Sequence record: SRR31156797_4117
DNA: 37,920 bases
Direction: 5' to 3' (one strand)
Shown here piece after piece: positions 11,724 to 34,886 of the stretch. Both the position numbers and the translations under genes were made by a program. Positions within the stretch are counted from its first letter, which is position 1. Every line of letters begins with the position of its first letter. The notes under the pieces were generated by a model. It was not told the DNA's origin and made no database searches. It worked only from the letters and a program-made list of their open reading frames with translations.

Positions 11724-11948
11724 ATGAGAAAAATTATTACTTCCATGCCTGCGGGGCGTGTTGATTTGAGTTCGCTAAAGCAGAACTTTATTCATACTAA
11801 AAAGAGAACCGGTGAAAAACTTTTCACATGGTTAAAGTCGATGCTAAGTCGAATATCCCCAATTCAATTTATTGAGAATGCTGAGGAATCTCTTCATGAG
11901 GAGAAAATGATTCCTGTTGTGGTATTTCACGATCGGTTCAATAGATAA
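11724..11948 (+). CDS. Possible small ORF between the riboswitch and cobA
   Basis: 74-aa ATG ORF starting about 47 nt after the B12 box; no recognised motif. Confidence 0.35.
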   Translation: MRKIITSMPAGRVDLSSLKQNFIHTKKRTGEKLFTWLKSMLSRISPIQFIENAEESLHEEKMIPVVVFHDRFNR

Positions 11949-12033
11949 AAATCTATTGAACCGATTGTCGTGTTCGCTAATAAGAAGAATTGAAAAATCA
12001 AACAATCGTTTGAATCCAGAAAATCCAGAAATC

Positions 12034-12810: not shown

Positions 12811-12812
12811 CT

Positions 12813-13688: not shown

Positions 13689-13703
13689 GATATAGAGAAG
13701 AAT

Positions 13704-14408: not shown

Positions 14409-14414
14409 AATATC

Positions 14415-16998: not shown

Positions 16999-17039
16999 CC
17001 ACGAAGGACAATAAAGAAATAGCTAAAAGCTAAAAAAAT

Positions 17040-18872: not shown

Positions 18873-18895
18873 TTACGAATTAGAAATTACGTATT

Positions 18896-18926
18896 GACCT
18901 GACAGGTTTTAAAAACCTGTCAGGTC
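18896..18926. repeat. Perfect 15-bp inverted repeat (REP-like palindrome)
   Basis: gacctgacaggtttt-a-aaaacctgtcaggtc inside the operon, between cbiF and cbiJ-D. Confidence 0.8.
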
Positions 18927-18940
18927 TGATGGATAAATAA

Positions 18941-20761
18941 ATGAAAATATTACTATTCGGAGGAACAACAGAAGGCAAAGCCACGTCGAATTGGTTGAGC
19001 GATTTGGAGATAGAACATTTCTATTCCACTAAGACCAATTCGGGCAATTACGAGAGCAAATTTGGTACTCGTATTTGCGGAGCTATGGAGGTTGCTGGAA
19101 TCTGTTCTTTTTGTAAGGGCAATCAAGTTGATTTGATTATTGATGCGGCACATCCTTTTGCAGATGTCTTGCACCAAAATATTGTAGCTGCTGCTAATCA
19201 ATTAGTATTGCCGGTTATTCGAATAGAAAGGGATGCGGTTCCCCGAATAGTGAGTGAATTCGTTCAGTATCATCAGAATTTGGATGGTATATTGAATGAG
19301 GTTAAGAAACAAAATCAATCAAAGGTCTTGTCTTTAATGGGAGTGAAAGCCTTGCCTGAAATTCATTCAAAAACCCATGGAATTGATATTTGGTACAGAA
19401 TATTGGATTTTCCATCCTCACAAAAAATAGCTGATGAAGCTGGAGTTGAGCGGGATCGATTAATAATTGCTCCTGCTTTTGAAGGAATGGAAACCCAGGA
19501 ACCATTATTAATTTCTGAAGGTATTCAAGCAATGATTACCAAAGAGAGTGGTTACTCCGGTTTGTTGGATCAGAAAATGGAATTGGCGATAAAACATCAA
19601 ATTCCTTTGTATGTGATTGCCAGACCAGACCTTCCAGAATACTATGAAACAGTTACCAATCGAGAAGGATTACAGAAATATCTGAAATCTGCCTTTGCCT
19701 TTGTAAGAAAGGAGATGGCTCATGGATTTACTTCAGGAACCTGTGCCACAATATCTGCGAAAGCAGCTATGAAATTATTATTGGGAGAGGAAAGGCAGGA
19801 AAAGGAACAAATTGTTTTGGCTGATGGTGGAAACTGCGAAATGGTTCTTCATCAGAATCAAAAAGGAGAAAATTTTGCACTTTGTTCGGTGGTGAAAAAT
19901 TCTGGTGACGATCCGGATATTACCGATGGAATGGAAATTGGTGTTCGTTTGTCCTGGAATGAAGAAAGTACGATTCGCTTTGTGAAAGGTGAGGGTGTTG
20001 GAACAGCAACTTTGAATGGTTTGGGAATTCCTTTGGGAGAACCTGCTGTAAATCCGGTTCCTCGGAAAATGATTTGTTTAGAGCTACAGCAATTGCTAGA
20101 AGATTATGAAATCAGTAAAGGAATTGATGTTTCAGTATTTGTGCCATTGGGAAGAAAACTGGGTGCAAAAACCTTTAATCCCAAGCTCGGCATTGTTGAT
20201 GGAATTTCCATTATCGGGACAACAGGCAGAATTAAACCTTATTCGCTGGAAGCCTATGTTCAGACTATTCAGAAGCAATTGGACTTGGCAGTTTTAAATG
20301 AGAGCAAGCATATTGTAATGAATTCGGGCGGACGAAGCGAACGATATTTAAAGCAAAGATTTACCGAGTTAAACAATCTTGCCTTTCTGCAATATGGAAA
20401 CTTTATTGGTGAAATGCTGAAAACCATTAATGGTTCGGGGGTAGTGAAAGTAAGCATGGGTATTATGACTGGGAAAGCCATTAAGTTGGCGGCAGGAAAT
20501 CTGGATACACATAGTAAGAAAGTGGTTTTGGACCATGAGTTTTTACAAAATCTGACTAGAGAATGTAATTATTCTGATGATGTAATTGATAAGGTAGGCA
20601 AGATAAAAATGGGAAGAGAATTGGAAGACATTTTCAATTTTTCGGGAGATGAGGCGTTCTTTAAAGCCATAAAAGAACAATGCATGGCAGTTTGCCAAAA
20701 TATAATTGAAGATTATGAATTTGAGCTTTTACTAATTAGTAATAAGGGAGAAATAGTATAA
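18941..20761 (+). CDS. cbiD: Precorrin-6A reductase (CbiJ) fused to cobalt-precorrin-5B C1-methyltransferase (CbiD)
   Basis: FGGTTEG, IDAAHPFA, TKESG (CbiJ); GFTSGTCA, KNSGDDPDIT, TFNPKLGIVDGISIIGTTG (CbiD). Confidence 0.92.
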   Translation: MKILLFGGTTEGKATSNWLSDLEIEHFYSTKTNSGNYESKFGTRICGAMEVAGICSFCKGNQVDLIIDAAHPFADVLHQNIVAAANQLVLPVIRIERDAVPRIVSEFVQYHQNLDGILNEVKKQNQSKVLSLMGVKALPEIHSKTHGIDIWYRILDFPSSQKIADEAGVERDRLIIAPAFEGMETQEPLLISEGIQAMITKESGYSGLLDQKMELAIKHQIPLYVIARPDLPEYYETVTNREGLQKYLKSAFAFVRKEMAHGFTSGTCATISAKAAMKLLLGEERQEKEQIVLADGGNCEMVLHQNQKGENFALCSVVKNSGDDPDITDGMEIGVRLSWNEESTIRFVKGEGVGTATLNGLGIPLGEPAVNPVPRKMICLELQQLLEDYEISKGIDVSVFVPLGRKLGAKTFNPKLGIVDGISIIGTTGRIKPYSLEAYVQTIQKQLDLAVLNESKHIVMNSGGRSERYLKQRFTELNNLAFLQYGNFIGEMLKTINGSGVVKVSMGIMTGKAIKLAAGNLDTHSKKVVLDHEFLQNLTRECNYSDDVIDKVGKIKMGRELEDIFNFSGDEAFFKAIKEQCMAVCQNIIEDYEFELLLISNKGEIV

Positions 20762-20764
20762 GAT

Positions 20765-21493
20765 ATGGGAAAAAAGTTATTTGTTTTGCTAGCCTTTTTA
20801 ATTCCTTTTCAGGGATTTAGCATGCACATCATGGAAGGCTATCTTCCGGCAGCCTGGTCGATTTTTTGGACTGTGGTTTACTTGCCATTTTTTGTGTGGG
20901 GTGTAAAAATTATTCAGGAAAAAGTGAAGAAACATCCGGAGTTGAAGATGTTGTTTGCCTTGGCAGCAGCCTTTGCATTTGTGATGTCGGCTTTAAAATT
21001 GCCTTCGGTAACCGGAAGTTCATCGCATCCTACAGGAGTGGGATTAGGAACCTTACTTTTTGGTCCTATTGCCATGAGTGTGCTAGGAGTGTTGGTTTTA
21101 ATTTTTCAGGTATTATTATTGGCTCATGGGGGAGTTACCACTTTGGGAGCAAATGCATTTTCCATGGCTTTGACTGGTCCATTGGTAACTTTCGGGATCT
21201 ATAAGTTGTGTGTAAAGTTTAAAATCAATCGCTCAGTATCTATTTTCCTAGCTGCCTGTTTGGGCGATTTGGCAACCTACACAGTAACCTCCTTACAATT
21301 GGCATTGGCTCACCCGGATGTACAAACTGGTGTGGCTGGCGCATTCGTGAAATTTGCCTCCATCTATAGCTTTACGCAGATTCCTGTAGCAATTATTGAA
21401 GGATTAATTACCGTTTTGGTAATGAACATTCTCATTAAAAATATACCAAGTTGGGAAGGGTTAAAATTCAAGTTTAAAACCTCAAAATCATAA
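20765..21493 (+). CDS. cbiM: ECF cobalt transporter S component
   Basis: Signal-like N-terminus then MHIMEGYLP; SSSHPTG; LAHGGVTTLGAN; TQIPVAIIEG. Confidence 0.93.
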   Translation: MGKKLFVLLAFLIPFQGFSMHIMEGYLPAAWSIFWTVVYLPFFVWGVKIIQEKVKKHPELKMLFALAAAFAFVMSALKLPSVTGSSSHPTGVGLGTLLFGPIAMSVLGVLVLIFQVLLLAHGGVTTLGANAFSMALTGPLVTFGIYKLCVKFKINRSVSIFLAACLGDLATYTVTSLQLALAHPDVQTGVAGAFVKFASIYSFTQIPVAIIEGLITVLVMNILIKNIPSWEGLKFKFKTSKS

Positions 21494-21497
21494 GAAT

Positions 21498-21788
21498 ATG
21501 CTACAAAAGATCGTAAAGAATCAGAATTTTTGGATTATCATCGCCATAGTAGCTATTGTTGTTGGTGTATTTTCATACGTTGACAATTCAGAATTTGGTG
21601 GCGCCGACGGACAAGCAGAAGAGTACATTGTGGAAGCTAATCCTGCATATGAACCTTGGTTTTCGAATATCTGGGAACCACCCGGATCGGAAATTGAAAG
21701 TTTACTATTTGCATTGCAAGCTGCCATCGGAGCAGGTATTTTGTTTTATGTGATAGGATATTATAAAGGAAAGAAATCTGCGGCATAA
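21498..21788 (+). CDS. cbiN: ECF cobalt transporter component
   Basis: FGGADGQAE, YEPWF, EPPGSEIESLLFALQAAIGAG. Confidence 0.93.
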   Translation: MLQKIVKNQNFWIIIAIVAIVVGVFSYVDNSEFGGADGQAEEYIVEANPAYEPWFSNIWEPPGSEIESLLFALQAAIGAGILFYVIGYYKGKKSAA

Positions 21789-21837
21789 TCGTAAAGATGT
21801 ACAGCTGTGCGTTTGTATAGAAATAATTAAATCTATT

Positions 21838-22632
21838 TTGTTTTTTCAGGAACGATACATATTAAAAAAATCCCTTTTCGGATTAGAAGGCATGGAAAAG
21901 TTTATTCTTTTCATGATATTGCTTAATGCTGCCTTGTTGTCTGATCAAATGATACTTCACCTTATTTTATTATTGGGGATTGTTTTGTGTTTTTTGATTT
22001 ATGGAATGAGTTTGCAAAAAATGTTGCGTCTTTTGGTTTTACCATTTGGATTTATTCTGTTGGGAAGTATTTCTATTGCTTTATCCTTGCATGCCAATCC
22101 TGAAACTTCAATATTTTGTTGGGAAGGAACTAGCATTTGCATTGGAGTAGAGGAGGAAGGATTGCAAAAAGCAATGGCATTGTTTTGTAAAGCAATGGCA
22201 GCAGTAATGGCGTTAAATTATCTAATTCTTTCCTGTCCTTTATCGGAGATTAATGATATAGGAAGAAGGCTAAGAATTCCATTGATTTTAAGAGAGCTTT
22301 TTGTGCTTACCTATCGATACATAACTCTGCTTTTTGGATTTACAACACAGGTACATATAGCTCAACGCAATCGCTTGGGCTATGCGAGCAAACGAAAAAG
22401 TATTTCATCCATGAGCATGCTGTTTTCTTCGGTGTTTATTAAGAGTTTGCAATATTCACAGCGAAACTTCGAAGCTATGCAATCCAGAGGCTATACCGGC
22501 GAATTCTATTTTAATGAGCACAGTAAAGCAATGCGATTGCTACCCTTAATCTTGTTGGGATTGCTAGCTATCTTTTTGTTGTCAATTCACTATTTGTTAT
22601 CCAATTCATCATTCATCATTTATAATTTTTAA
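21838..22632 (+). CDS. cbiQ: ECF cobalt transporter T component
   Basis: LTYRYI, AQRNRLGY, AMQSRGY; TTG start uncertain. Confidence 0.88.
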   Translation: MFFQERYILKKSLFGLEGMEKFILFMILLNAALLSDQMILHLILLLGIVLCFLIYGMSLQKMLRLLVLPFGFILLGSISIALSLHANPETSIFCWEGTSICIGVEEEGLQKAMALFCKAMAAVMALNYLILSCPLSEINDIGRRLRIPLILRELFVLTYRYITLLFGFTTQVHIAQRNRLGYASKRKSISSMSMLFSSVFIKSLQYSQRNFEAMQSRGYTGEFYFNEHSKAMRLLPLILLGLLAIFLLSIHYLLSNSSFIIYNF

Positions 22633-22639
22633 ATACCAT

Positions 22640-23425
22640 ATGTTGCGTCTTCAAAATATAAACTATACTTATCCTGAGGGAACGAAAGGATTACAAGATG
22701 TTTCTCTCGAGATAAAAAGGGGCAGTAAGATGGCTTTTTTAGGGGAGAATGGTGCAGGTAAATCCTCTCTGTTTTTGGTTTTGAATGGAATTCATAAACC
22801 GCAGAAAGGAAAATATTACATCGAAGAGAATAGCTTCAAATTCACTTCAAACGAAAGAAAGCAGATGGCGGCTAAGGTAGGATATGTTTTTCAGGATCCG
22901 GATGTGCAGTTATTTGCAGGAACTGTTTATGAAGATGTTGCTTTTGGTCCATCGAATTTGGGATTGAAAGGAGAGGAATTAAAGTTGCGTGTAAGCAAAT
23001 ACATCGAATTATTAGGAATTGGAGAGTTAAGAGAAAAAGCCCCACATCAGTTAAGTTACGGGCAGAAGAAGCAGGTTGCTGTAGCAGGCGTGTTGGCGAT
23101 GGAACCGGAAATTGTATTGTTTGATGAGCCATTTGCCTGGTTGGATAATCGTCACAAGCAAATCATGACAGACATTATCGAGGATTTGAACAAGCAGGGG
23201 AAAACAGTTTTAATCTCTACTCACAATCCTGATTTTGCCTACGAATGGGCAGATGATGTGGTATTAATGAAACAGGGAAGAGTGATCGCCTCAGATTCTC
23301 CTGAAAAAGTGATGACAAATAAAGTGATGATGCAGGAAATCGGCATGGAATTGCCTTTGGTCGTTCGTTTGGCGAGGAAATTGGGTATGGAAAATCATCC
23401 CCGTTCAGTACATGAATTTTTGTAA
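22640..23425 (+). CDS. cbiO: ECF transporter ATP-binding component
   Basis: GENGAGKS, VFQDPDVQLF, LSYGQKKQV, LFDEP. Confidence 0.92.
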   Translation: MLRLQNINYTYPEGTKGLQDVSLEIKRGSKMAFLGENGAGKSSLFLVLNGIHKPQKGKYYIEENSFKFTSNERKQMAAKVGYVFQDPDVQLFAGTVYEDVAFGPSNLGLKGEELKLRVSKYIELLGIGELREKAPHQLSYGQKKQVAVAGVLAMEPEIVLFDEPFAWLDNRHKQIMTDIIEDLNKQGKTVLISTHNPDFAYEWADDVVLMKQGRVIASDSPEKVMTNKVMMQEIGMELPLVVRLARKLGMENHPRSVHEFL

Positions 23426-23530: not shown

Positions 23531-24820
23531 TCAATTCTCAAACTTCCGATAAATCTCAATTAAATTATCTGCTTGTGTGTAGATATTGAAATGTTTTTCA
23601 ACTCCAGCTCTGGCTTTTATTGATAGATCCTTAAGTTTTACTTCATCCTTTAAAAGATTTTTTATAGCTCTTGCCAATTCCTCAGGACTGTTATTGTCGT
23701 AAACTATTCCACCTTCCGATTTTTCAACAATCTCAGGGAATGCTCCCAAAGCTGGTTGAACCACAGGAACTCCTGATGCCATGCTTTCCAATAGGTATAA
23801 ACCAAAGGCCTCTCCGTTACGAACCGGAACTGAGATCATCTGTACTTTTTTTAAGAAATCGTGTCTTCCTTCGCCGTCAAAATCTTCATGAAACTCGACT
23901 TGATCAAGCAAATTTGCATGTTGTAATTTTTGCTTCATTTTCTTTAAAAGAGGCTTATCATCCCCGGTTGATCCACCTGTAAGTATCAGATTTACATCTT
24001 TAAAATCTGCATCTTGTTTCAGTTCAATAAAAGCATCTATCATGATATCAAAACCATTTGCTTCGCACATCCTTGAGATGTAGCCTATGTTTCTAGCTTT
24101 CTCTTCAGGTTTTGTAATGTGATATTCATCAGGATCAACACCTAAATGATTGGTGAATACTTTATTGTCATTTATCTTCATCTTTTGGATGGATACTTTC
24201 GAATAGAAATCGCTTACACCAATAAAGCCATTAATCGATTCTGATTTACTACTCATCAAATCCCAAATCTTATCCCTGAAAGAATCCTTCATGGCATCCA
24301 CCCAAACATCTTCATCCTGTAAAGAACAAAAGAGACGAGCATTTGGAAATTCTTCACTCAACTTAGGAGCCAATCCTAATAGAAGTGCATTCGACAAGTG
24401 AATCACATCTGGTTTTAAATACTCAGCCATCCAGCTTACCATACGGTTGAGCTCTTCCTTTTGTGCACCTTCTTCTCCCATGAGCATGGATACTGTCATT
24501 TCTTCTAATCCTTTGGCATTGGTCGATCCCGCCATGCTTGCTGCAAATTTCAGCATCGGACGAGAGTTTAACAAACGATCTACCCAGGCAGGAGCATGCC
24601 TGAAAATGGGATACAATTGTTTTAAATAAATGCTAATAGCTCCATAAAAAACAGGCATCTCATTCAAATCATGTTCATCGGAAAATAGGGGAAGATACAT
24701 GGGGATTTTAGTCACCTCATGACCTTGTGCTTTCATGGCATTGTGAAATTTATCATCGCGCAAGCAATTGCCGCAATAAAAGCTACCACCGGAACCGGGA
24801 ATAATTTGAAGGATATTCAT
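23531..24820 (-). CDS. Glycosyltransferase family 4 protein
   Basis: GYISRM, EAFGLYLLESMASGVPVV, GAFPEIV; N-terminal FYCGNCLRD. Confidence 0.88.
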   Translation of the reverse strand: MNILQIIPGSGGSFYCGNCLRDDKFHNAMKAQGHEVTKIPMYLPLFSDEHDLNEMPVFYGAISIYLKQLYPIFRHAPAWVDRLLNSRPMLKFAASMAGSTNAKGLEEMTVSMLMGEEGAQKEELNRMVSWMAEYLKPDVIHLSNALLLGLAPKLSEEFPNARLFCSLQDEDVWVDAMKDSFRDKIWDLMSSKSESINGFIGVSDFYSKVSIQKMKINDNKVFTNHLGVDPDEYHITKPEEKARNIGYISRMCEANGFDIMIDAFIELKQDADFKDVNLILTGGSTGDDKPLLKKMKQKLQHANLLDQVEFHEDFDGEGRHDFLKKVQMISVPVRNGEAFGLYLLESMASGVPVVQPALGAFPEIVEKSEGGIVYDNNSPEELARAIKNLLKDEVKLKDLSIKARAGVEKHFNIYTQADNLIEIYRKFEN

Positions 24821-28743: not shown

Positions 28744-28773
28744 AAAAAAAGAGGTTGCATAGTTGGCAACCCC
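28744..28773 (-). terminator. Rho-independent terminator closing the precursor array
   Basis: Minus strand GGGGTTGC-CAACTAT-GCAACCTC-TTTTTTT, 25 nt after the last precursor stop. Confidence 0.85.
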
Positions 28774-28798
28774 GAGAGAATAAGTGTTATTAAAAATC

Positions 28799-28954
28799 TT
28801 AATCATAGATTCTCATGCAAACACCGCCATCGCAATAATACCCGCCTGGGCAATCCTCGTGCCAGTCGCAAAAAGGATGGGCACCACCTTTAATATTTTG
28901 TTGTTCTGTTTTACTCAATTCTTTTGCACCAACTAGTTTTTCTAAATTTTTCAT
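28799..28954 (-). CDS. Double-glycine precursor peptide P9 (51 aa): MKNLEKLVGAKELSKTEQQNIKGG|AHPFCDWHEDCPGGYYCDGGVCMRIYD
   Basis: 24-aa GG leader shared with 8 neighbours; start reassigned from 28984. Confidence 0.9.
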   Translation of the reverse strand: MKNLEKLVGAKELSKTEQQNIKGGAHPFCDWHEDCPGGYYCDGGVCMRIYD

Positions 28955-29009
28955 AGTGTTACAATTTAATTTGAATCTTGGCAAGGTTTTAACTTTTTAG
29001 TTTTAAATG

Positions 29010-29216
29010 TTATGGTTCTAGTTCACCATTACCTCCGCCTCCACCAGAACCGCCAGAGTTCGGATCATCAGGTACACAGAATATACCTTCGCAATGTTGT
29101 CCTTCGGGACATTCAGGATCGGATCCGCAGAATGACCCTGAAAAGCCACCTTTAACATTTAATTGTTCTTTTTTGCTAAGTTGTTTAGCACTAGTAAGGT
29201 TTTCTAAATTTTTCAT
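29010..29216 (-). CDS. Double-glycine precursor peptide P8 (68 aa): core FSGSFCGSDPECPEGQHCEGIFCVPDDPNSGGSGGGGGNGELEP
   Basis: Conserved leader, 4 Cys, Gly-rich tail. Confidence 0.9.
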   Translation of the reverse strand: MKNLENLTSAKQLSKKEQLNVKGGFSGSFCGSDPECPEGQHCEGIFCVPDDPNSGGSGGGGGNGELEP

Positions 29217-29270
29217 TGGTTTAATTTTATATCCTGAGAATCAGGATGGATTTGAAAAAGTACAATCAAT

Positions 29271-29441
29271 TTAAACTGGAATCGGAAGGCAAATACCGAG
29301 GTCTATTACGCAGCCTTGCCCCTCAGGACAGCTTTGATCATCAATGCATTTTGGATCGTTTGGCCATTGACCACCTTTAATAACTTGTTGTTCTTTCTTA
29401 CTTAGTTTTTTTGCTTCAGTTAATTTTTCTAAATTTTTCAT
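29271..29441 (-). CDS. Double-glycine precursor peptide P7 (56 aa): core QWPNDPKCIDDQSCPEGQGCVIDLGICLPIPV
   Basis: Conserved leader; start reassigned from 29477. Confidence 0.9.
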   Translation of the reverse strand: MKNLEKLTEAKKLSKKEQQVIKGGQWPNDPKCIDDQSCPEGQGCVIDLGICLPIPV

Positions 29442-29466
29442 TTGGTAAAAAAATAATATGTTTTTC

Positions 29467-29498
29467 ATCTTGAACATCTACACCGTCAAGATTTCGGT
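29467..29498 (-). repeat. Intergenic RNA motif copy A (putative H-type pseudoknot), upstream of P7
   Basis: Minus strand ACCG-AA-ATCTTGA-CGGT-GTAGATGT-TCAAGAT. Confidence 0.65.
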
Positions 29499-29534
29499 TT
29501 TAATTTAAATGCAATATTATATCAGTATTCTTAA

Positions 29535-29711
29535 TTACATTCTGCTACACCAGTCTCTGCAATTGGGAGGAGCAACTCTTATGCAACGCTCATAAGTCAT
29601 ATATTGTAACCCCATATCGGCACAAGACATTGGTACTTCTCCACCTGCAACATTTACCTGTTCTTTTTTACTGAGGATTTTGATTCCAGTTAAATTTTCT
29701 AAATTTTTCAT
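29535..29711 (-). CDS. Double-glycine precursor peptide P6 (58 aa, not in ORF track): MKNLENLTGIKILSKKEQVNVAGG|EVPMSCADMGLQYMTYERCIRVAPPNCRDWCSRM
   Basis: Translated by hand; conserved leader, 4 Cys. Confidence 0.9.
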   Translation of the reverse strand: MKNLENLTGIKILSKKEQVNVAGGEVPMSCADMGLQYMTYERCIRVAPPNCRDWCSRM

Positions 29712-29733
29712 TTGGTAAAAATTATATGTTTTT

Positions 29734-29766
29734 AATCTTGAATATTTATACCGTCAAGATTTCGGT
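29734..29766 (-). repeat. Intergenic RNA motif copy B, upstream of P6
   Basis: Minus strand ACCG-AA-ATCTTGA-CGGT-ATAAATAT-TCAAGATT. Confidence 0.65.
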
Positions 29767-29785
29767 TATTGAAGTTTATAATATG

Positions 29786-29816
29786 ACAACAGTCTCAATC
29801 CATATGAGACTGTTGT
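29786..29816. repeat. 12-bp stem-loop just downstream of P5
   Basis: acaacagtctca-atccata-tgagactgttgt. Confidence 0.75.
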
Positions 29817-29824
29817 TTTATGTT

Positions 29825-30010
29825 TTAATCCATAGGAGTAAATGGATCGAAGCCGTTTGGGCATTTTTTACCAGCCTCCCATGGTGTAATAATTCCATCT
29901 ATTAGGCAAAATACCCCTACAGGTTTGAGTTCTCCAATACCACCTGTAATTTCTTTTTGTTCTTGTTTATTAAGAGTCTTTGCTTCAGTTAGGTTTTCTA
30001 AATTTTTCAT
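29825..30010 (-). CDS. Double-glycine precursor peptide P5 (61 aa): core IGELKPVGVFCLIDGIITPWEAGKKCPNGFDPFTPMD
   Basis: Conserved leader, 2 Cys. Confidence 0.88.
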   Translation of the reverse strand: MKNLENLTEAKTLNKQEQKEITGGIGELKPVGVFCLIDGIITPWEAGKKCPNGFDPFTPMD

Positions 30011-30037
30011 AGTATTAAAATTGAATTTTGAGTTATA

Positions 30038-30066
30038 CTTGAATATTATACCGTCAAGATTTCGGT
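30038..30066 (-). repeat. Intergenic RNA motif copy C, upstream of P5
   Basis: Minus strand ACCG-AA-ATCTTGA-CGGT-ATAATAT-TCAAG. Confidence 0.62.
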
Positions 30067-30071
30067 TTTAA

Positions 30072-30105
30072 TTCCTACCAATGAAATATATATCATTGGT
30101 AGGAA
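30072..30105. repeat. 13-bp stem-loop just downstream of P4
   Basis: ttcctaccaatga-aatatata-tcattggtaggaa. Confidence 0.75.
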
Positions 30106-30120
30106 AAGTTAGTTTTTTAG

Positions 30121-30267
30121 TTAGCCCTGGAAGTAACAATTAAATCCACTACAAGAAGCATCAGGATGACATTCAACGTAACATGGAGGAGTTGCGCCAC
30201 CTTTTATAGTTTGTTGCTGTTTTTTGTCAAGAGTTTTTACTCCGGTTAATTTTTCTAGGTTTTTCAT
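30121..30267 (-). CDS. Double-glycine precursor peptide P4 (48 aa, not in ORF track): MKNLEKLTGVKTLDKKQQQTIKGG|ATPPCYVECHPDASCSGFNCYFQG
   Basis: Translated by hand; conserved leader, 4 Cys. Confidence 0.9.
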   Translation of the reverse strand: MKNLEKLTGVKTLDKKQQQTIKGGATPPCYVECHPDASCSGFNCYFQG

Positions 30268-30318
30268 GGGAAATGATTTATATTTTATGAATATTTATGA
30301 AAAAATGTATTGTTTATC

Positions 30319-30474
30319 TTACTCAAGAAGGTATCTTTCACATGCACCGTTAATACAGGTCCACCCTGTTGGACATGTACCATCTGCATTACATTGTCTT
30401 TTCCCACCTTTAACATTTTGTTGTTCTTTTTTACCAAGAGTTTTGGCTCCCTTTAAGTTTTCTAAATTTTTCAT
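30319..30474 (-). CDS. Double-glycine precursor peptide P3 (51 aa, not in ORF track): MKNLENLKGAKTLGKKEQQNVKGG|KRQCNADGTCPTGWTCINGACERYLLE
   Basis: Translated by hand; conserved leader, 4 Cys. Confidence 0.9.
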   Translation of the reverse strand: MKNLENLKGAKTLGKKEQQNVKGGKRQCNADGTCPTGWTCINGACERYLLE

Positions 30475-30502
30475 TTGTATGAATTTAAAATGTAGTTTTT
30501 TA

Positions 30503-30535
30503 TCCTGAACTATTTAAAACTGTCAGGAAATCAGT
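30503..30535 (-). repeat. Intergenic RNA motif copy D (compensatory variant), upstream of P3
   Basis: Minus strand ACTG-ATT-TCCTGA-CAGT-TTTAAATAGT-TCAGGA. Confidence 0.62.
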
Positions 30536-30554
30536 ATTATTTAATTGGGTGTAT

Positions 30555-30707
30555 TTACTCTATACTGTATTGACAAACACCATTTATACATTGCATTAAA
30601 CCAGGGCAAGAGTAATCAGGTCTACAATCTATTTGACCACCTTTTATCGCTTGCTGTTCTTGCTTACTAAGAGTTTTAGCTTTAGTGAATTCTTTTAAAT
30701 TGTTCAT
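30555..30707 (-). CDS. Double-glycine precursor peptide P2 (50 aa, not in ORF track): MNNLKEFTKAKTLSKQEQQAIKGG|QIDCRPDYSCPGLMQCINGVCQYSIE
   Basis: Translated by hand; conserved leader, 4 Cys. Confidence 0.9.
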   Translation of the reverse strand: MNNLKEFTKAKTLSKQEQQAIKGGQIDCRPDYSCPGLMQCINGVCQYSIE

Positions 30708-30724
30708 AGGGTTTTATTGTTAAT

Positions 30725-30970
30725 TTATAAATTAGGATCAATGTGTATTGGTCCTTCTGGACTTCCACCGTTATTTCCACCACCTCCACTGCCAGAGTTA
30801 GGGTTGTCAGGAACACAAGTTCCATTTTCACAGTGCTGTCCGGTTGGACAATAGCCAACTCCATCTTCCATTTGACATGCTGATGGGATGTATGGCAAAC
30901 CACCTTTTACATTTTGTTGTTCTTTTTTCGTTAAAGTTTTAGTTCCTGTTAGATTTTTTAAATTTTTCAT
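30725..30970 (-). CDS. Double-glycine precursor peptide P1 (81 aa): core LPYIPSACQMEDGVGYCPTGQHCENGTCVPDNPNSGSGGGGNNGGSPEGPIHIDPNL
   Basis: Conserved leader, 4 Cys, Gly-rich tail. Confidence 0.9.
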   Translation of the reverse strand: MKNLKNLTGTKTLTKKEQQNVKGGLPYIPSACQMEDGVGYCPTGQHCENGTCVPDNPNSGSGGGGNNGGSPEGPIHIDPNL

Positions 30971-31015
30971 TTTCTAAATGTTAAATTTGATTCCCGAAAT
31001 ATTCAGGAATAGAGA

Positions 31016-32614
31016 TTATTGAATTAATGCAGTATTCTGCATCTGAATTTGTTCTTCAGTTAAATTTTCGATAAAATATTGCAAGTCTTCAAAATCATAT
31101 TCTTTTGGATATGATCTTCCATTAATCAATACTTCGGGAGTAAATAGAATTTGATTTTGCGTGCACCATTCTTTTTCTTTCTCGAGTACATCATAGATGT
31201 TTATGTTATTGCACTTACCGTATGTCTCTATCCATTTTAAAGGTGAGAGAATTTCATATGCGTCATTCATTGCTTGCATGCAGGCAGTTTGACCTTTTGT
31301 TTTAAATATTTCGATAAGTTTTGCTGCTATTTGGGTATCCGAATTTTCTTTCTTGTTCGATAAGTTAAATCGAACAGTAATTTTAATATCAGATGATTTT
31401 TCTAGTGCTTGATGTATTATTTTGTGTGAATTTTTACAAAAGCTACATAATGGATTTGTGATGATAACAATCTCAAGGTTGGCATTAGAATTTCCAAAGG
31501 TAATTTCATTAATAGTTGAAATTTGAGTATCTAACTTCGTTGATCTATAATGTAATGCGTTAAAAATTTCAAAATTCCTTTTGAATTTGTTGTGTTGAAT
31601 TTTTAGATCAAATATCTGCTTGTTTTCTTGTAGCTTTGGTGAAATAAAGAACCAAAAACTTGTTGAAACAAATAAAGTAAATAGTAGTATTGGTATTGTA
31701 TTTATTGATATTTGAAGAAATTCTGCTGAACTTATATTGAGGAAAGAAATTGTAGCTTGAAGAATAAGAATACCAACAGTAGACAGGCAAAGTAAGCACC
31801 ATTTTTTAACAATTAATGCTTGGTAAATAATGGAATAGATTGTAAACGGTAAGGCTAGAATACTTATTTGATGAAGCAATTTAAAATCAATTGATTTAAA
31901 AGTTATGGCAAATGAAAGAGCTGTAATGAATAAGAAATAAATCATACCTAAATCACTTAATCTTAGAATGCCAAGGATTTTTCCACCTTTGGAATTCATT
32001 ACATCAGTACAGCTCAGTTTTTTATTATTACCCGAGCATATTTTGTTCAGAAGGGAAGAGTTTTCTCCTAGTTCGTGTTGGAATATTAAAGCACAAACAT
32101 AAATTGCTATAGCACTGAGAAGAAAGTGTATGCTCTCATATAATTTCTGATTTAAGATGATAAATGTTGCTACAATGAGTAAGGGACTTAATGTGACAAA
32201 TAATTTCTTGAAATTATAAGGTTGGGATTGTTTGTCATATTCGTCAATATCAATACCCAAAACAACACCCGTCCAAACGATTATAAATTCAGAATAGGTA
32301 AGGAATTTATATTTCCTGCCGTTTTCACTCATTTTCAAACCATCTTTGTGTTTGCATATTAACACAAAGTTATCTCCTGTCTGATCATTGATATGAGCGA
32401 TAAAGTGGTCGGGTAAAAAATTTATATTTTCTTCCGATTTTGGAATCTCTAAGGCCAAATTTGGAATATTGAAATGGTCTAGAACTCCAGTTAATGAATT
32501 TAAGCTTGGATAGGTAGGGTGACCGAATAGTTGAAGGCGAAGTTCGTCATTATCAACTTTAATTTTATTCTTAACTAATAATCCTTCAAGAATTAGGAAT
32601 AAATTTTCATTCAT
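31016..32614 (-). CDS. Vitamin K epoxide reductase (VKOR) family protein with N-terminal degenerate peptidase-C39-like domain and C-terminal thioredoxin/DsbA-like domain
   Basis: HPTYPSLNSL..LPDHFIAHI..NFVLI..WTGVVL (C39-like); loop Cys pair CSGNNKKLSC plus VMNS and WCLLC (VKOR); NPLCSFC and FTPEVLING (thioredoxin fold). Confidence 0.85.
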   Translation of the reverse strand: MNENLFLILEGLLVKNKIKVDNDELRLQLFGHPTYPSLNSLTGVLDHFNIPNLALEIPKSEENINFLPDHFIAHINDQTGDNFVLICKHKDGLKMSENGRKYKFLTYSEFIIVWTGVVLGIDIDEYDKQSQPYNFKKLFVTLSPLLIVATFIILNQKLYESIHFLLSAIAIYVCALIFQHELGENSSLLNKICSGNNKKLSCTDVMNSKGGKILGILRLSDLGMIYFLFITALSFAITFKSIDFKLLHQISILALPFTIYSIIYQALIVKKWCLLCLSTVGILILQATISFLNISSAEFLQISINTIPILLFTLFVSTSFWFFISPKLQENKQIFDLKIQHNKFKRNFEIFNALHYRSTKLDTQISTINEITFGNSNANLEIVIITNPLCSFCKNSHKIIHQALEKSSDIKITVRFNLSNKKENSDTQIAAKLIEIFKTKGQTACMQAMNDAYEILSPLKWIETYGKCNNINIYDVLEKEKEWCTQNQILFTPEVLINGRSYPKEYDFEDLQYFIENLTEEQIQMQNTALIQ

Positions 32615-33308
32615 AACAGTATTAAATATTAGGTAGGTGTATTTTGGGTAAAAACAGAAACTAATTTATCATCAATTTTCAATTCAAAAACATGAATTAT
32701 ATGCTTCTAAGTTAATTGATTTGATACATTGTTGTAAAACGATTAAAACCTTTCCGGTGTTAGGTATTACAGTAGATATAATGTTTTTTTTGGAATGGTA
32801 TTGTTCTATGCTCTGGAAAGAATGGAAGTATAGTTTGTAGTACATAAAAGTAGTGTTTTGTCTTTGTTTATTTATAGTCGTCAGGAACTAATTTATGAAA
32901 AATTTATTTTACTAGCACAATTTATTTGATATAAAAAAACGCATAAAAAAACATTTGTCAGTAAAAATAAGGGTTTTAGAGTAATAAAAATGACATTTGC
33001 ATATAATGTATTGCAATGTCAAATGTTTGGATTAATATTTGTAATTAAACAATATTACTATTGATCAAAATAGTTGGTTGTTGTAGGCGAGTAGTTCTGG
33101 TTTTGCTGTGTGTATAGTGAACAAAAAATGATTGATTATATGAGTGAATACAATTGTAGAGAGTAAATAATAATGTGGAATGATATTATTGGTGTGGCAA
33201 AATAGTTGTGAAAATTAAGCTTCATTTTATTTAGATAATGATATAATCATTTCCAAATAAAAATCTATTAGAATTAAAATTATCATGTGTATGAAATACC
33301 ATTGTATT

Positions 33309-34886
33309 TTAAACTAAAATACTGGATTTTCTATTTTCAAGCTTTAAATGGTCTTCATCCGAATGTGAGGTGGGAATAGTAAAATAAAATAAACTACCTC
33401 TTTGTAATAGAGATTGCAAATGAATTTCTCCACCAAGTTTTTCAACAAGACCTTTAACGATGGATAAACCTAATCCTGTTCCTCCATAAATTCGATCTGC
33501 ATTCTGTTCAACTTGTGAAAAACGGTTGAATATTGATTTGTGATAGGCTTCAGGAATGCCAATGCCAGTATCTTTTATGTAAAAAGTAAGTAATCCGTTT
33601 GCTTCAACTTTAAGGTCTACTTTGATATAGCCTTTATCCGTAAATTTAAAGGCATTATTAACAAGATTTATAATTACTTGTTTTAATTTTCCTTTATCTG
33701 TAAAGAGGATAATATTATTAAATTTTTCTGTGTTTGGTAATTTCAATTCTAGATGAGCTTTATCATATCTTTTTTGAATTTCGCAAAAAGTAGGAGTTAA
33801 TTCTGTTATGAGATCATTTAAAAGAAATTGCTCTGTGCTTAGTGCGATGTTTTCAGATTCAATTTTAGATATATCTAATAAGTCACTGATAATGTAAAGC
33901 AAATCTTTCCCTCTTTGACTTATTATATTAGTATATTCACTTAGTTTGTTTTTGTTGTTAAATTCTTGTGGTAAGAGTGAAGAAAAACCTAGAATTGCGT
34001 TCATTGGTGTTCGTATTTCATGACTCATATTTTGAAGAAATATAGTTTTTAAACGATCACTTTCAATTGCTTTTTGGTTAGCGACAATTAGTTTATTGTT
34101 TTGTTCTTTTAAGATAGCTTCACTTTGGATAACTTTTCTCTGAGATTGATTTCTTTGCTTCACAACTAGTAACATTCTTCGATAAGACAAGCTTCCAATT
34201 ATGAGAAGTAAAAGGTAAATGATAGAGTGCGTAAGAATTAAATTGTTGATTTTTACTTTTAAAATTTCCTTATATTTTTTCATTGGAATGGCAACACTTA
34301 TTCCTCCCCGGATATCTCCAATTTTGTATCCCTGATTAGCATGACATTTAAGACATGAATTCTCTATTACTAATGGCTTCATGTATCTCAAATGATTTTC
34401 ATTATTAATATTTTCAATACTTGAATATTCTTGTTTTCCGTCCTGAAACATTTTAAGAGCATTGTTTTCCCATTCATCTGCTTTGTTTTTAGGGTTTAAT
34501 GGATGTAAACTGGTAATATGCCCTTTTTCGCCATACTGAACGGCACCTATCTGAAATACAAGTCGGGTCATGTATGCAGGATTAATTAAGGTAAGTTTTT
34601 GTCCAGTATTGGTAGTTATATTTCTTTCCTTAACAAACTCCAGGTATGGGTTGGGAACTATAGAATCGGTTATTGGTACATAAACACCTCCGTGCATGGA
34701 TGCCCACTTGCGAAAGGTGAGATCTTTATTGTAATTACCTATAGCTTCAACTTTAGCTAATTCATAGGTGGTTTTTTTTTCATTTGATATATTCCATAAC
34801 AAAGATGATACAATCAGAATGGTAAATCCAACAATCATTGATATGAAAAATTGCTTGAAATATTTTATTTCCTTACTCATAGTCAA
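33309..34886 (-). CDS. Sensor histidine kinase with periplasmic DUF3365/Tll0287-like c-type heme domain
   Basis: HGGVYVP, LINPAYMTR, CLKCH heme motif, GDIRGGISV; MSHEIRTPMN, NAFKFT, GTGLGL. Confidence 0.9.
   Translation of the reverse strand: MTMSKEIKYFKQFFISMIVGFTILIVSSLLWNISNEKKTTYELAKVEAIGNYNKDLTFRKWASMHGGVYVPITDSIVPNPYLEFVKERNITTNTGQKLTLINPAYMTRLVFQIGAVQYGEKGHITSLHPLNPKNKADEWENNALKMFQDGKQEYSSIENINNENHLRYMKPLVIENSCLKCHANQGYKIGDIRGGISVAIPMKKYKEILKVKINNLILTHSIIYLLLLIIGSLSYRRMLLVVKQRNQSQRKVIQSEAILKEQNNKLIVANQKAIESDRLKTIFLQNMSHEIRTPMNAILGFSSLLPQEFNNKNKLSEYTNIISQRGKDLLYIISDLLDISKIESENIALSTEQFLLNDLITELTPTFCEIQKRYDKAHLELKLPNTEKFNNIILFTDKGKLKQVIINLVNNAFKFTDKGYIKVDLKVEANGLLTFYIKDTGIGIPEAYHKSIFNRFSQVEQNADRIYGGTGLGLSIVKGLVEKLGGEIHLQSLLQRGSLFYFTIPTSHSDEDHLKLENRKSSILV

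What the first reader, a model, noticed from the sequence alone, without database searches (positions are those of the whole stretch)
28744..32614. Candidate new disulfide-RiPP system: nine double-glycine precursors behind a C39-like/VKOR/thioredoxin fusion
Seen: nine co-oriented 48-81 aa ORFs (P1-P9, four below the ORF-track cutoff). Each has an exactly 24-aa leader, consensus MKNLE(N/K)LTxAKxLSKKEQQNxKGG, and a different core with an even Cys count (eight have 4, one has 2). The array starts 45 nt after the VKOR-fusion stop and ends at a U-tailed terminator. Established: GG leaders are recognised by C39 domains, and VKOR/DsbA pairs generate disulfides. Inference: one operon in which a single leader-guided oxidase folds a library of disulfide-stapled mini-peptides. 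No lanthipeptide, radical SAM, YcaO or ATP-grasp enzyme is present in the locus. Similar VKOR fusions and GG peptides are annotated in other Bacteroidota, but I know of no characterised pathway of this design.
Basis: partly seen in the sequence, partly recalled or inferred. Interest (0 to 1): 0.92.

Follow-up and report, generated by a model that had tools for sequence, protein, structure and literature searches.

The report
Disulfide-peptide operon with dedicated membrane oxidase
A marine Bacteroidota bacterium carries nine small cysteine-rich secreted-peptide genes behind one membrane enzyme built to form their disulfide bonds, an arrangement common in this phylum, related to known bacteriocin systems, and possibly working on the unusual inner side of the membrane.

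Summary
On the minus strand a 532-aa fusion (non-catalytic C39-like domain, VKOR core, DsbA-like domain) is followed after 45 nt by nine peptide genes. Each has a 24-aa GG leader and 4 Cys (P5: 2), and the array ends at a terminator.

The link is not chance. In 80 related Bacteroidota loci, 249 leader-HMM hits lie downstream on the fusion's strand and 2 lie elsewhere. 68 of 80 loci have at least one hit. 45 loci also carry a catalytic PCAT exporter and 41 a HlyD adaptor. The fusion family has 3267 representatives at E<=1e-30.

The design is not without precedent. Bacteroidetocins (GG leader, 4 Cys, required thiol oxidoreductase) and glycocins (BdbA/BdbB) use the same logic. I class it as a new variant of a known kind, not a new RiPP class.

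One result is unexpected. An extra helix (TM0) puts all three domains on one side of the membrane. That side holds 13.8 K+R against 1.3 on the other in 94 of 94 parsed fusions, the reverse of canonical VKORs of the same phylum. This suggests an inward-facing oxidase that acts on leader-bearing precursors in the cytoplasm. Leader binding has only weak support (0.58, best control 0.01).

The parts
31016..32614 (-). Fusion oxidase gene, 532 aa: C39-like domain, extra helix TM0, VKOR core, TM5, DsbA-like domain
   Evidence: ORF. Pfam VKOR, Thioredoxin_4 and weak Peptidase_C39. AF2 model with pLDDT 88.9 and pTM 0.65. 79% identical to a Marinifilum protein.
32240..32614 (-). N-terminal C39-like domain (aa 1-125), non-catalytic; no signal peptide by inspection of the N-terminus
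   Evidence: Foldseek match to the PCAT1 peptidase domain 7n87: TM 0.64 (normalised to the target), rmsd 3.2 over 124 columns. hhalign to linked PCAT N-termini: probability 78%, E 1.8e-5, 67 columns. No conserved Cys before C193 in 115 homologues. The PCAT catalytic Cys and His positions are occupied by other residues.
32153..32212 (-). Extra transmembrane helix TM0 (aa 135-154), ahead of VKOR TM1
   Evidence: AF2 helix H135-154. Hydrophobic in the mean of 115 homologues. Pfam VKOR and Synechococcus VKOR (4nv6) alignments start only at aa 164-168.
31736..32143 (-). VKOR four-helix core (aa 158-293) with loop Cys C193 and C202 and CxxC C273/C276
   Evidence: Pfam VKOR 1.1e-14. C193, C202 and C273 are invariant in 115 homologues and C276 is conserved in 90% or more (all four invariant in the 19-sequence A1). 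Aligned to 4nv6/3kp9.
31544..31705 (-). TM5 and long K-rich linker helix (aa 304-357)
   Evidence: AF2 helix H304-357. Mean 5.57 K+R in aa 326-345.
31019..31522 (-). DsbA-like thioredoxin domain (aa 365-532), CxxC C390/C393 (CSFC here, CGHC in the family consensus), T492-P493 as the presumed cis-Pro loop (assigned from recall, not tested)
   Evidence: Pfam Thioredoxin_4. Foldseek to BdbD 3eu4 (TM 0.66 normalised to the target), ScsC and DsbA. PDB profile hits 1z6m and 4xvw. Invariant C390, C393 and T492.
30725..30970 (-). P1 precursor: 24-aa GG leader, 57-aa core with 4 Cys and a Gly/Asn-rich tail
   Evidence: Leader HMM 49.7 bits. An RNA-library contig covers 30719-30968.
30555..30707 (-). 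P2 precursor, 26-aa core, 4 Cys
30319..30474 (-). P3 precursor, 27-aa core, 4 Cys
   Evidence: Used as the partner.
30121..30267 (-). P4 precursor, 24-aa core, 4 Cys
29825..30010 (-). P5 precursor, 37-aa core, 2 Cys; flanked by two 13-bp stem-loops
   Evidence: An RNA-library contig covers 29804-29954.
29535..29711 (-). P6 precursor, 34-aa core, 4 Cys, without the common motif
   Evidence: RNA-library contigs cover 29429-29698 and 29425-29672.
29271..29441 (-). P7 precursor, 32-aa core, 4 Cys
   Evidence: A contig of run X3 skips 29199-29425, so P7 is absent in a variant.
29010..29216 (-). P8 precursor, 44-aa core, 4 Cys, Gly-rich tail
   Evidence: RNA-library contigs.
28799..28954 (-). P9 precursor, 27-aa core, 4 Cys
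   Evidence: RNA-library contigs from 28921.
28751..28773 (-). Intrinsic-terminator-like hairpin with a T run, closing the array
   Evidence: 8-bp stem, 5 GC pairs, TTTTTTT tail.
32615..33308 (-). 694-nt AT-rich non-coding stretch upstream of the fusion; presumed promoter region, no promoter identified
   Evidence: Sequence read. The Bacteroidota -33/-7 pattern gave no match here. Sigma-70-like sites were not above shuffles.

Best explanation
This is a maturation operon for a small library of secreted, disulfide-stapled mini-peptides. They are most likely bacteriocin-like and comparable to bacteroidetocins.

Nine precursors share one 24-aa double-glycine leader. One membrane enzyme installs their disulfides:
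- Its DsbA-like domain (CxxC at C390/C393) oxidises the core.
- The VKOR loop cysteines (C193, C202) and CxxC (C273/C276) re-oxidise that domain and pass the electrons to a membrane quinone.
- The N-terminal C39-like domain has lost the protease Cys and His and serves as a leader-docking module.

The extra helix TM0 places all three modules on one side of the membrane, and that side carries nearly all the loop K+R. I therefore take the enzyme to face the cytoplasm. On this reading it oxidises leader-bearing precursors before a catalytic PCAT cuts after GG and exports the folded core. The PCAT is encoded elsewhere in this genome type and in the same operon in many relatives.

Shown here: gene anatomy, domain identities, conserved cysteines, the genomic association, helix count and charge bias.
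Inferred: substrate relation, leader docking, inward orientation, order of events, antimicrobial role.
For: Anatomy.

Association with GG/Cys peptides:
- 249 same-strand downstream leader hits against 2 elsewhere, in equal sequence space (669 kb upstream, 679 kb downstream). 68 of 80 loci have at least one hit, and the median first hit is 182 nt after the fusion.
- Core Cys counts: 208 even, 40 odd, 1 zero, of 249.

Export partners in the same operon:
- PCAT in 45 of 80 loci and HlyD in 41 of 80.
- All 45 PCATs keep the catalytic Q-x-DCGPxC motif, while the fusion's own domain lacks it.

Dedicated rather than housekeeping:
- The only VKOR matches in five Marinifilaceae genomes are the fusions.
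- Only 16 of 301 genomes sampled from the order have the fusion.

Topology:
- Six helices.
- K+R on the redox side against the other side: 14.5 against 0.9 (means over 115 homologues).
- 94 of 94 parsed fusions have more K+R on the redox side (means 13.8 against 1.3 over the 95 TM0-bearing proteins). 10 canonical VKOR or VKOR-DsbA proteins of the same phylum show the opposite, as do 6 more.

Precedent and feasibility: inward-facing archaeal VKORi plus signal-less DsbA makes disulfides in the E. coli cytoplasm (passages of bioRxiv 10.64898/2026.03.26.714578).

Leader docking: ipSAE 0.58 with best control 0.01. The runs agree in at least 81% of contacts and the partner pLDDT is at least 65. The verdict is 'weak support'; that mark was reached by 51 of 78 solved complexes and 2 of 108 mismatched pairs, but scores of 0.60 or under came from only 5 of those 78 and from all 4 mismatches that passed.

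Expression hint: RNA-library contigs of two studies lie on P1, P5, P6, P8 and P9 at 99-100% identity.

Functional precedent: deleting the bacteroidetocin thiol oxidoreductase attenuates the toxin (section 7 of PMC6671954).
Against: - No PCAT or HlyD lies in the window and the window's own genome is not held. The exporter is inferred from relatives: G001 has three PCATs, and one is 67% identical to a fusion-linked PCAT.
- The preprint read states that VKORs other than the crenarchaeal VKORi (bacterial, plant and mammalian) face outward. DsbA-like domains are normally extracytoplasmic (recalled).
- The orientation rests on the positive-inside rule alone. Human, rat and viral VKORs violate that rule.
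- Two of the K residues (K270, K271) are nearly invariant and may be functional rather than topogenic.
- Five short stand-alone VKOR homologues unrelated to GG peptides show the same inverted bias. Either inward VKORs are commoner than thought or the measure is less reliable.
- The complex score is in the weak range, and a PCAT1-substrate complex is solved (6v9z), so the pass may reflect likeness.
- 6 of 74 loci with enough downstream sequence had no leader hit.
- 40 of 249 cores have an odd Cys count.
- No activity or mass data exist. The RNA contigs do not prove transcription.
Confidence: 0.5

Rival explanations
1. The operon and substrates are the same, but the oxidase has the canonical outward orientation. 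A PCAT removes the leader and releases unfolded cores into the periplasm. The DsbA-like domain oxidises them there. The periplasmic C39-like domain does something other than leader binding, for example holding cores or docking to the PCAT/HlyD exit.
For: - The preprint read states that VKORs other than the crenarchaeal VKORi, bacterial ones included, face outward.
- The DsbA-like domain resembles periplasmic or extracytoplasmic BdbD, ScsC and DsbA.
- The bacteroidetocin authors invoke missing general disulfide machinery, which implies envelope oxidation.
- K270 and K271 are conserved next to the CxxC.
Against: - It would need a 135-aa N-terminal domain to cross the membrane without a signal peptide (sequence).
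- The charge bias is 13.8 against 1.3 in 94 of 94 parsed fusions, opposite to canonical VKOR-DsbA proteins of the same phylum, which obey the rule.
- It leaves a conserved leader-binding fold in a compartment where PCAT substrates no longer carry a leader. That PCATs cleave before translocation is recalled, not tested here.
- The docking score, although weak, favours N-domain/precursor contact.
Confidence: 0.33
2. The peptides are precursors of a more heavily modified RiPP (radical SAM, lanthionine or glycosylation) made by enzymes encoded elsewhere. Disulfide formation is only an accessory step.
For: - Leaders score weakly against TIGR04149 (rSAM-modified RiPP; best 19 bits, cut-off 25) and PF14406 (21.4 bits, cut-off 25).
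- In other lineages the same fusion sits beside glycosyltransferases, a LanC-family gene, 6-bladed propellers or a weak rSAM.
- The best PCAT homologues in the Marinifilaceae relatives G003 and G004 lie near rSAM genes.
Against: - No such enzyme is found among 28 of 30 window ORFs of 120 aa or more.
- The nearest genome, G001, has no TIGR04148 maturase over the cut-off: best 62.8 bits against 300.
- All leader-family matches are below their cut-offs.
- Most related loci contain only the fusion, the peptides, a PCAT and HlyD.
- The even Cys counts fit disulfides alone.
Confidence: 0.1
3. The fusion is the cell's general envelope disulfide oxidase, and the neighbouring small ORFs are unrelated or not genes.
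For: It is the only VKOR homologue in five related genomes.
Against: - Strand- and side-specific association of 249 against 2.
- Only 16 of 301 genomes of the order have the fusion.
- Nine leaders at about 50 bits each, with conserved GG and Cys spacing across genera.
- RNA-library contigs lie on the peptide genes.
Confidence: 0.03

Closest known systems
Bacteroidetocins (proposed class IIf bacteriocins; Coyne et al. 2019, PMC6671954; passages and section 7 read)
   Same: Bacteroidota. GG-cleaved leader. Small cores with 4 Cys (at least 2 in the wider family). A locus-encoded thiol oxidoreductase that is required for full activity. A PCAT exporter. No immunity gene.
   Different: - The leader is 15-16 aa there and 24 aa here.
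- There is one peptide per locus there and nine here.
- Their loci have a separate 5-TM protein plus a 'thiol oxidoreductase' whose domain make-up the main text does not give. The supplements were closed, so identity with this fusion is untested.
- The PCAT is adjacent there and absent from this window.
- Core similarity could not be tested because no bacteroidetocin sequence was available.
Glycocin loci such as sublancin and pallidocin: SunA/SunT/SunS/BdbA/BdbB (PMC6405829, passages)
   Same: A GG-leader precursor with two disulfides, a PCAT, and an operon-encoded pair of thioredoxin-like protein and membrane quinone-linked oxidase.
   Different: - Firmicutes.
- The oxidase is DsbB-like, not VKOR, and is not fused.
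- There is no C39-like domain on the oxidase.
- An S-glycosyltransferase is required there. None is linked here, although distant relatives of this fusion do sit beside glycosyltransferases.
Canonical bacterial VKOR-thioredoxin/DsbA fusions (Synechococcus 3kp9/4nv6; Bacteroidota examples L130-L137)
   Same: The VKOR core with loop Cys pair and CxxC, TM5, and a C-terminal thioredoxin-fold domain.
   Different: - They have no TM0 and no C39-like domain.
- K+R lies on the side opposite the redox sites.
- Active site CPHC in those read, against CGHC in this family's consensus and CSFC in the window protein.
- Their neighbourhoods were not surveyed systematically. The canonical loci inspected (L124, L127) lie next to a DsbA-like gene and showed no GG-leader/Cys peptide arrays.
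Inward-facing archaeal VKORi (Aeropyrum pernix, Pyrobaculum aerophilum), as described in bioRxiv 10.64898/2026.03.26.714578 (passages)
   Same: A VKOR whose catalytic cysteines face the cytoplasm. With cytoplasmic DsbA it forms disulfides in the cytoplasm.
   Different: It is archaeal and stand-alone, and serves general cytoplasmic disulfides of hyperthermophiles. Here the orientation is only predicted, would arise from an added helix, and the enzyme is fused to its DsbA partner and a substrate-docking domain.
PCAT C39 peptidase domains (PCAT1, 7n87/6v9z) and non-catalytic C39-like domains of type I exporters (HlyB; recalled)
   Same: The fold. As in the HlyB-type domain, the catalytic residues are lost while a substrate-binding role is presumed.
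   Different: It is attached to an oxidase, not to an ABC transporter. Binding is not shown.
TIGR04149 GG_sam_targ_CFB, PF14406 Bacteroid_pep and NF047798 leader_Chryseo peptide families
   Same: Bacteroidota GG-type leaders of similar composition.
   Different: All matches are below the curated cut-offs, and no partner rSAM is nearby.

Membership tests
VKOR (PF07884) | Profile match over the curated cut-off | tested here: met
   55.1 bits against 27.5, aa 164-290.
VKOR (PF07884) | Loop cysteine pair and CxxC at the start of TM4 | tested here: met
   C193, C202 and C273 are invariant in 115 homologues and C276 is conserved in 90% or more (all four invariant in the 19-sequence A1); they align to the 4nv6 cysteines.
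VKOR (PF07884) | Outward (extracytoplasmic) orientation, as stated for bacterial VKORs | tested here: inconclusive
   Extra helix TM0, with K+R of 13.8 against 1.3 favouring the redox side as 'inside' in 94 of 94 parsed fusions. This is a prediction only; no experiment.
DsbA-like thioredoxin (PF13462) | Profile match, CxxC, cis-Pro loop and DsbA-type fold | tested here: met
   32 bits against 23.2. C390, C393 and T492 are invariant and P493 nearly so; that T492-P493 is the cis-Pro loop is assigned from recall. Foldseek to BdbD, ScsC and DsbA at E of about 4e-5.
Peptidase C39 (PF03412) | Profile match over the cut-off | tested here: not met
   The window protein scores 16.9 bits against 22. Some relatives pass, e.g. 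40.5 bits in G005.
Peptidase C39 (PF03412) | Catalytic Cys (Q-x-DCG motif) and His | tested here: not met
   No conserved Cys in aa 1-135. The Cys and His positions are replaced in alignments with PCATs. The linked PCATs keep the motif in 45 of 45.
Peptidase C39 (PF03412) | C39 fold | tested here: met
   7n87: TM 0.64 (normalised to the target), rmsd 3.2 over 124 columns. hhalign probability 78%.
Double-glycine-leader (PCAT-exported) peptides | N-terminal leader ending in GG, with no Sec signal | tested here: met
   9 of 9. The leader is conserved across genera.
Double-glycine-leader (PCAT-exported) peptides | Cognate PCAT in the locus | tested here: not met
   None in the window. Present in 45 of 80 related loci and elsewhere in the nearest genome.
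Bacteroidetocins (class IIf) | 15-16-aa leader, at least 2 Cys, about 42-aa core | tested here: not met
   The leader is 24 aa. Cores are 24-57 aa with 2-4 Cys.
Bacteroidetocins (class IIf) | Sequence similarity to Bd-A/Bd-B, and the same ancillary proteins | not testable with these tools
   No bacteroidetocin or ancillary sequences could be obtained.
RiPP (leader-dependent enzymatic modification) | The modifying enzyme recognises the leader | tested here: inconclusive
   N-domain with the P3 precursor: 0.58, best control 0.01, verdict 'weak support'.
TIGR04149 rSAM-modified RiPP | Profile score over the cut-off and a partner TIGR04148 maturase | tested here: not met
   Best score 19 bits against 25. 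No rSAM in the window. G001's best TIGR04148 match is 62.8 bits against 300.

The most novel reading that the evidence does not exclude
This fusion family would be the first bacterial inward-facing VKOR. An added N-terminal helix flips a VKOR/DsbA pair into the cytoplasm. There a protease-dead C39 domain docks the double-glycine leader, so that disulfides are installed on the precursor as a true leader-directed modification. A PCAT then cleaves the leader and exports the already folded mini-peptide. If so, thousands of Bacteroidota loci would encode a natural single-chain cytoplasmic disulfide-forming machine.
Probability: 0.42. Interest if true: 0.85.

Novelty: new variant of a known kind. 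Interest (0 to 1): 0.62.

Why it matters
A fusion family with at least 3267 diverged representatives sits next to GG-leader, Cys-rich peptide arrays across Bacteroidota. That marks a large, essentially unstudied reservoir of disulfide-stapled secreted peptides. Their characterised analogues, the bacteroidetocins, are potent narrow-phylum antibacterials.

The enzyme is the more interesting part. If its predicted inward orientation holds, it changes the stated view that bacterial VKORs all face outward. It would give a natural template for making disulfide-rich peptides in a bacterial cytoplasm, and it would make 'disulfide as a leader-directed modification' directly testable. If the orientation is canonical, the system is an ordinary, though widespread, relative of the bacteroidetocin and glycocin logic.

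Tried and rejected
- **Own-genome searches.** Not possible; no genome is held.
- **The search of earlier findings.** Closed.
- **Domain make-up of the bacteroidetocin 'thiol oxidoreductase' and '5-TM protein'.** The main text of PMC6671954 is silent. PMC8546649, PMC10352776 and PMC11901371 add nothing. Supplements were closed.
- **Literature searches for the fusion.** These term sets found nothing relevant: 'vitamin K epoxide reductase'+'peptidase C39'+'bacteriocin', 'VKOR'+'double-glycine' (one unrelated table), 'vitamin K epoxide reductase'+'C39'+'Bacteroidetes', '...'+'bacteriocin'+'Bacteroid', 'VKOR'+'RiPP', '...'+'Flavobacteri'+'bacteriocin'.
- **Split forms of the fusion.** The 'shorter' search gave only 2 contig-end fragments.
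- **Homology of TM0 to PCAT TM1.** hhalign aligned only the C39 part. The 8vp9 profile match reaching aa 158 is marginal at E 0.009. Not used as evidence.
- **Promoter.** The Bacteroidota -33/-7 pattern gave 1 match in the window, not at the locus and below the shuffle mean. Sigma-70-like sites were not enriched.
- **Window GT4 gene 23531-24820.** It shows only generic similarity to GT4 genes that flank distant fusions: 20% identity, E 0.009. Rejected as part of the system.
- **RNA runs.** No RNA-library contig lay on the fusion gene. With contigs this shows nothing about its expression.
- **Runs X4-X17.** They hold only small shares of the words. No habitat claim is made.

Full report
**What is there.**
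On the minus strand, a 532-aa ORF (31016-32614) is followed after 45 nt by nine short ORFs. A hairpin with a T run (28773-28751) closes the array.
- Read from their MKNL/MNNL starts, all nine peptides have a 24-aa leader ending in GG.
- Eight cores have 4 Cys and P5 has 2.
- A profile of the nine leaders scores each at 49.7-53.9 bits and finds nothing else of 12 bits or more in the 37.9-kb window.
Two minor corrections: the longest ORFs of P7 and P9 begin upstream of the leader-type start, and the cores are not all different.
- P1, P2, P3, P7, P8 and P9 (P4 loosely) share C-x5-8-C-P-x-G-x2-C-x3-5-C. This is also the consensus of 40 peptides from seven further lineages.
- That motif gives only sub-threshold Pfam/NCBIfam matches to small Cys-rich modules: Dickkopf_N, EB, DUF7107 and Myxo_Cys_RPT.

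**The enzyme.**
- Pfam finds VKOR (55.1 bits) and Thioredoxin_4 (32 bits) above their cut-offs, and Peptidase_C39 below its cut-off (16.9 against 22).
- An AlphaFold2 model built on 115 homologues is confident (pLDDT 88.9, pTM 0.65).
- Foldseek matches the C-terminal domain to BdbD, ScsC and DsbA. It matches the N-terminal domain to the PCAT1 peptidase domain 7n87 (TM 0.64 normalised to the target, rmsd 3.2 over 124 columns).
- Across the 115 homologues, five of the six redox cysteines (C193, C202, C273, C390, C393) are invariant and C276 is conserved in 90% or more. No cysteine is conserved in the N-domain.
- Alignments to real PCATs put other residues at the catalytic Cys and His positions.
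- So the N-domain is a protease-dead C39-like fold.

**Is the neighbourhood meaningful?**
- A genome-collection scan matched 324 stretches, of which 296 encode relatives of the fusion. The best 80 loci were kept.
- With the window's leader HMM (12 bits or more), 249 hits lie downstream on the fusion's strand and 2 lie anywhere else. The sequence space is almost equal on both sides.
- 68 of 80 loci have at least one hit. Of the 12 without, six have under 1.4 kb of downstream sequence and six have about 10 kb.
- The cores have an even number of Cys in 208 of 249, odd in 40 and none in 1.
- Clustering the larger neighbours shows a PCAT in 45 loci and a HlyD-family adaptor in 41, both downstream on the same strand. 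All 45 PCATs keep the Q-x-DCGPxC catalytic motif.
- In an even sample of the order, 16 of 301 genomes have the fusion. A simple regex screen found GG/Cys peptides beside it in 17 of the 23 loci returned; L114 is doubtful and L105-L108 and L115 had none.
- A profile search of 1.84 billion representatives gives 3267 proteins at E<=1e-30, and the best 150 listed are mostly full-length three-domain proteins of about 500-560 aa, with six shorter partial forms (367-467 aa).

**The window's own context.**
- No exporter is in the window. The flanks are a sensor histidine kinase, SAM hydroxide adenosyltransferase and PhoH upstream. Downstream lie a DEAD-box helicase, a methyltransferase, MazG, a GT4 and cobalamin genes.
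- The same housekeeping synteny holds in Marinifilum and Labilibaculum relatives.
- The window's genome is not held.
- The closest genome, G001 (fusion 79% identical), has three full-length PCATs elsewhere. One is 67% identical to a PCAT that is operon-linked to the fusion in another lineage.
- In five Marinifilaceae genomes the fusions are the only VKOR matches. This argues for a dedicated enzyme rather than a housekeeping one.
- L001 has 11 peptides. Seven are orthologous to the window's and four are not. An RNA-library contig skips 29199-29425, which removes P7. The array therefore turns over by cassettes.

**Expression hint.**
- Contigs from RNA libraries of two marine-sediment studies lie on P1, P5, P6, P8 and P9. 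In run X2 they carry 0-1 mismatches; in run X3 they are less alike, 2 to 6 other letters per piece.
- As the tool warns, contigs in an RNA library do not prove transcription.
- The lack of contigs on the fusion gene shows nothing.

**Topology, the unexpected part.**
- AF2 and the family-averaged hydropathy give six membrane helices: an extra TM0 (aa 135-154), then VKOR TM1-4 and TM5.
- Pfam and the Synechococcus VKOR structures align only from aa 164-168 onward.
- One extra helix means that the C39-like domain, the VKOR cysteines and the DsbA-like domain all lie on the same side of the membrane.
- If that side is the periplasm, as for the bacterial VKORs that a 2026 preprint describes as outward-facing, two problems follow. 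A 135-aa domain without a signal peptide must be translocated. It would also meet PCAT substrates only after their leader is gone (PCAT order of events recalled).
- The charge distribution points the other way. Over 115 homologues the redox-side segments hold 14.5 K+R and the opposite loops 0.9.
- With an automatic helix parse, all 94 fusions that parsed (of 117; 23 failed) have more K+R on the redox side. The means are 13.8 against 1.3, taken over the 95 TM0-bearing proteins.
- Ten canonical VKOR or VKOR-DsbA proteins from the same phylum show the opposite. A first parser adds six more canonical cases.
- The same preprint describes natural inward-facing VKORi in Crenarchaea. It also reports that VKORi plus signal-less DsbA makes disulfides in the E. 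coli cytoplasm.

Caveats on the topology:
- It is a prediction from the positive-inside rule alone.
- ER and viral VKORs break that rule.
- K270 and K271 are conserved and may be functional.
- Five short stand-alone VKOR homologues, unrelated to GG peptides, show the same inverted bias.

**Leader docking.**
- The N-domain (aa 1-132) with the P3 precursor scored 0.58, and the best of 3 controls scored 0.01.
- The three runs agree in at least 81% of contacts and the partner pLDDT is at least 65.
- The tool's verdict is 'weak support'. The mark was reached by 51 of 78 solved complexes and 2 of 108 mismatched pairs. Scores of 0.60 or under came from only 5 of those 78 and from all 4 mismatches that passed.
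- A PCAT1-substrate complex is solved (6v9z), so the pass may reflect likeness.

**Most likely mechanism.**
- A dedicated oxidase matures a library of GG-leader peptides.
- Electrons flow from core thiols to the DsbA-like CxxC, then to the VKOR loop Cys, the VKOR CxxC and finally quinone. This is inferred from the conserved cysteines and the known VKOR-Trx relay.
- The C39-like domain docks the shared leader (weak support).
- I favour action in the cytoplasm before PCAT cleavage and export (about 0.5 for the whole statement).
- The main rival is canonical periplasmic action on exported cores (0.33).
- Further modification by remote enzymes (0.1) and coincidence (0.03) are less likely.
- The peptides' role is inferred by analogy to be antibacterial. 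Nothing here tests it.

**Comparison with the known.**
- Bacteroidetocin loci encode a GG-leader 4-Cys peptide, a thiol oxidoreductase whose deletion attenuates toxin, a 5-TM protein and a PCAT.
- Glycocin loci encode a GG precursor, SunT, a thioredoxin-like BdbA and a DsbB-like BdbB.
- So the idea of an operon-encoded disulfide machine for a GG-leader peptide is established.
- The following differ here: the three-domain fusion, the VKOR chemistry with an extra helix and inverted charge bias, the 24-aa leader, and the nine-gene array.
- Whether the bacteroidetocin oxidoreductase and 5-TM protein are a split form of this fusion could not be tested (supplements closed, no sequences).
- In six term searches of the held library I found no paper that describes this fusion.
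- In other lineages the same fusion sits beside GT4/GT2 glycosyltransferases, a LanC-family gene and 6-bladed propellers. It appears to be a general accessory module of Bacteroidota GG-peptide clusters.

**Verdict.**
The feature is real and non-random. It is a new variant of a known kind. Interest is moderate to high because of the predicted inverted, leader-docking oxidase and the size of the family.

Noticed in passing
window 29785-29817 and 30072-30105: Two 13-bp stem-loops bracket the odd peptide gene P5, which has 2 Cys and lacks the common motif. On the coding (minus) strand neither is followed by a T run. They look like RNA-processing or stabilising elements, or cassette boundaries, rather than terminators.
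   Followed up: partly
window 29199-29425 (run X3): A 744-nt contig from an RNA library joins 29199 to 29425 and so lacks P7. L001 has 11 peptides, four of them without a counterpart here. The array gains and loses whole peptide cassettes between strains.
   Followed up: partly
They lie next to deacetylase-like (by eye, from the HPERP motif; not scanned against a family library) and ABC-2-type transporter genes, not GG peptides. They may be further inward-facing bacterial VKORs, or a limit of the measure.
   Followed up: partly
L100, L102, L103, L105; L116, L117 (Parabacteroides distasonis records): In more distant Bacteroidales the same fusion is flanked by GT4/GT2 glycosyltransferases, DUF5128/DUF4934 six-bladed propellers, a LanC-family gene, a DUF4369 protein and a PCAT. 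This suggests glycocin-like or lanthipeptide-like variants that reuse the same oxidase module. In L117 the fusion is annotated as two CDS (a C39 part and a thioredoxin part).
   Followed up: partly
G003:C49:25484-31362: Labilibaculum manganireducens has a second copy of the fusion (540 aa) about 5 kb from a 743-aa PCAT, in addition to the PCAT-less copy that is syntenic with the window.
   Followed up: no
window 33309-34886 (-): A sensor histidine kinase (Tll0287-like sensor domain, HisKA, HATPase_c) lies directly upstream of the 694-nt non-coding stretch. A homologue is in the same place in L001 and L003 but not in L002 or L004-L006. No response regulator is adjacent, and a regulatory link to the operon is untested.
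   Followed up: partly
window 11917-23425 (+): A long cobalamin biosynthesis and cobalt-transport cluster (CbiX/K, CbiC, CbiG, CbiD, CbiJ, several TP_methylase genes, CbiM, CbiQ, ABC ATPase). It is unrelated to the finding.
   Followed up: no
family consensus, aa 390-393: The DsbA-like active site is CGHC (the PDI motif, recalled) in the family majority and CSFC in the window protein. The canonical Bacteroidota VKOR-DsbA fusions read carry CPHC.
   Followed up: no
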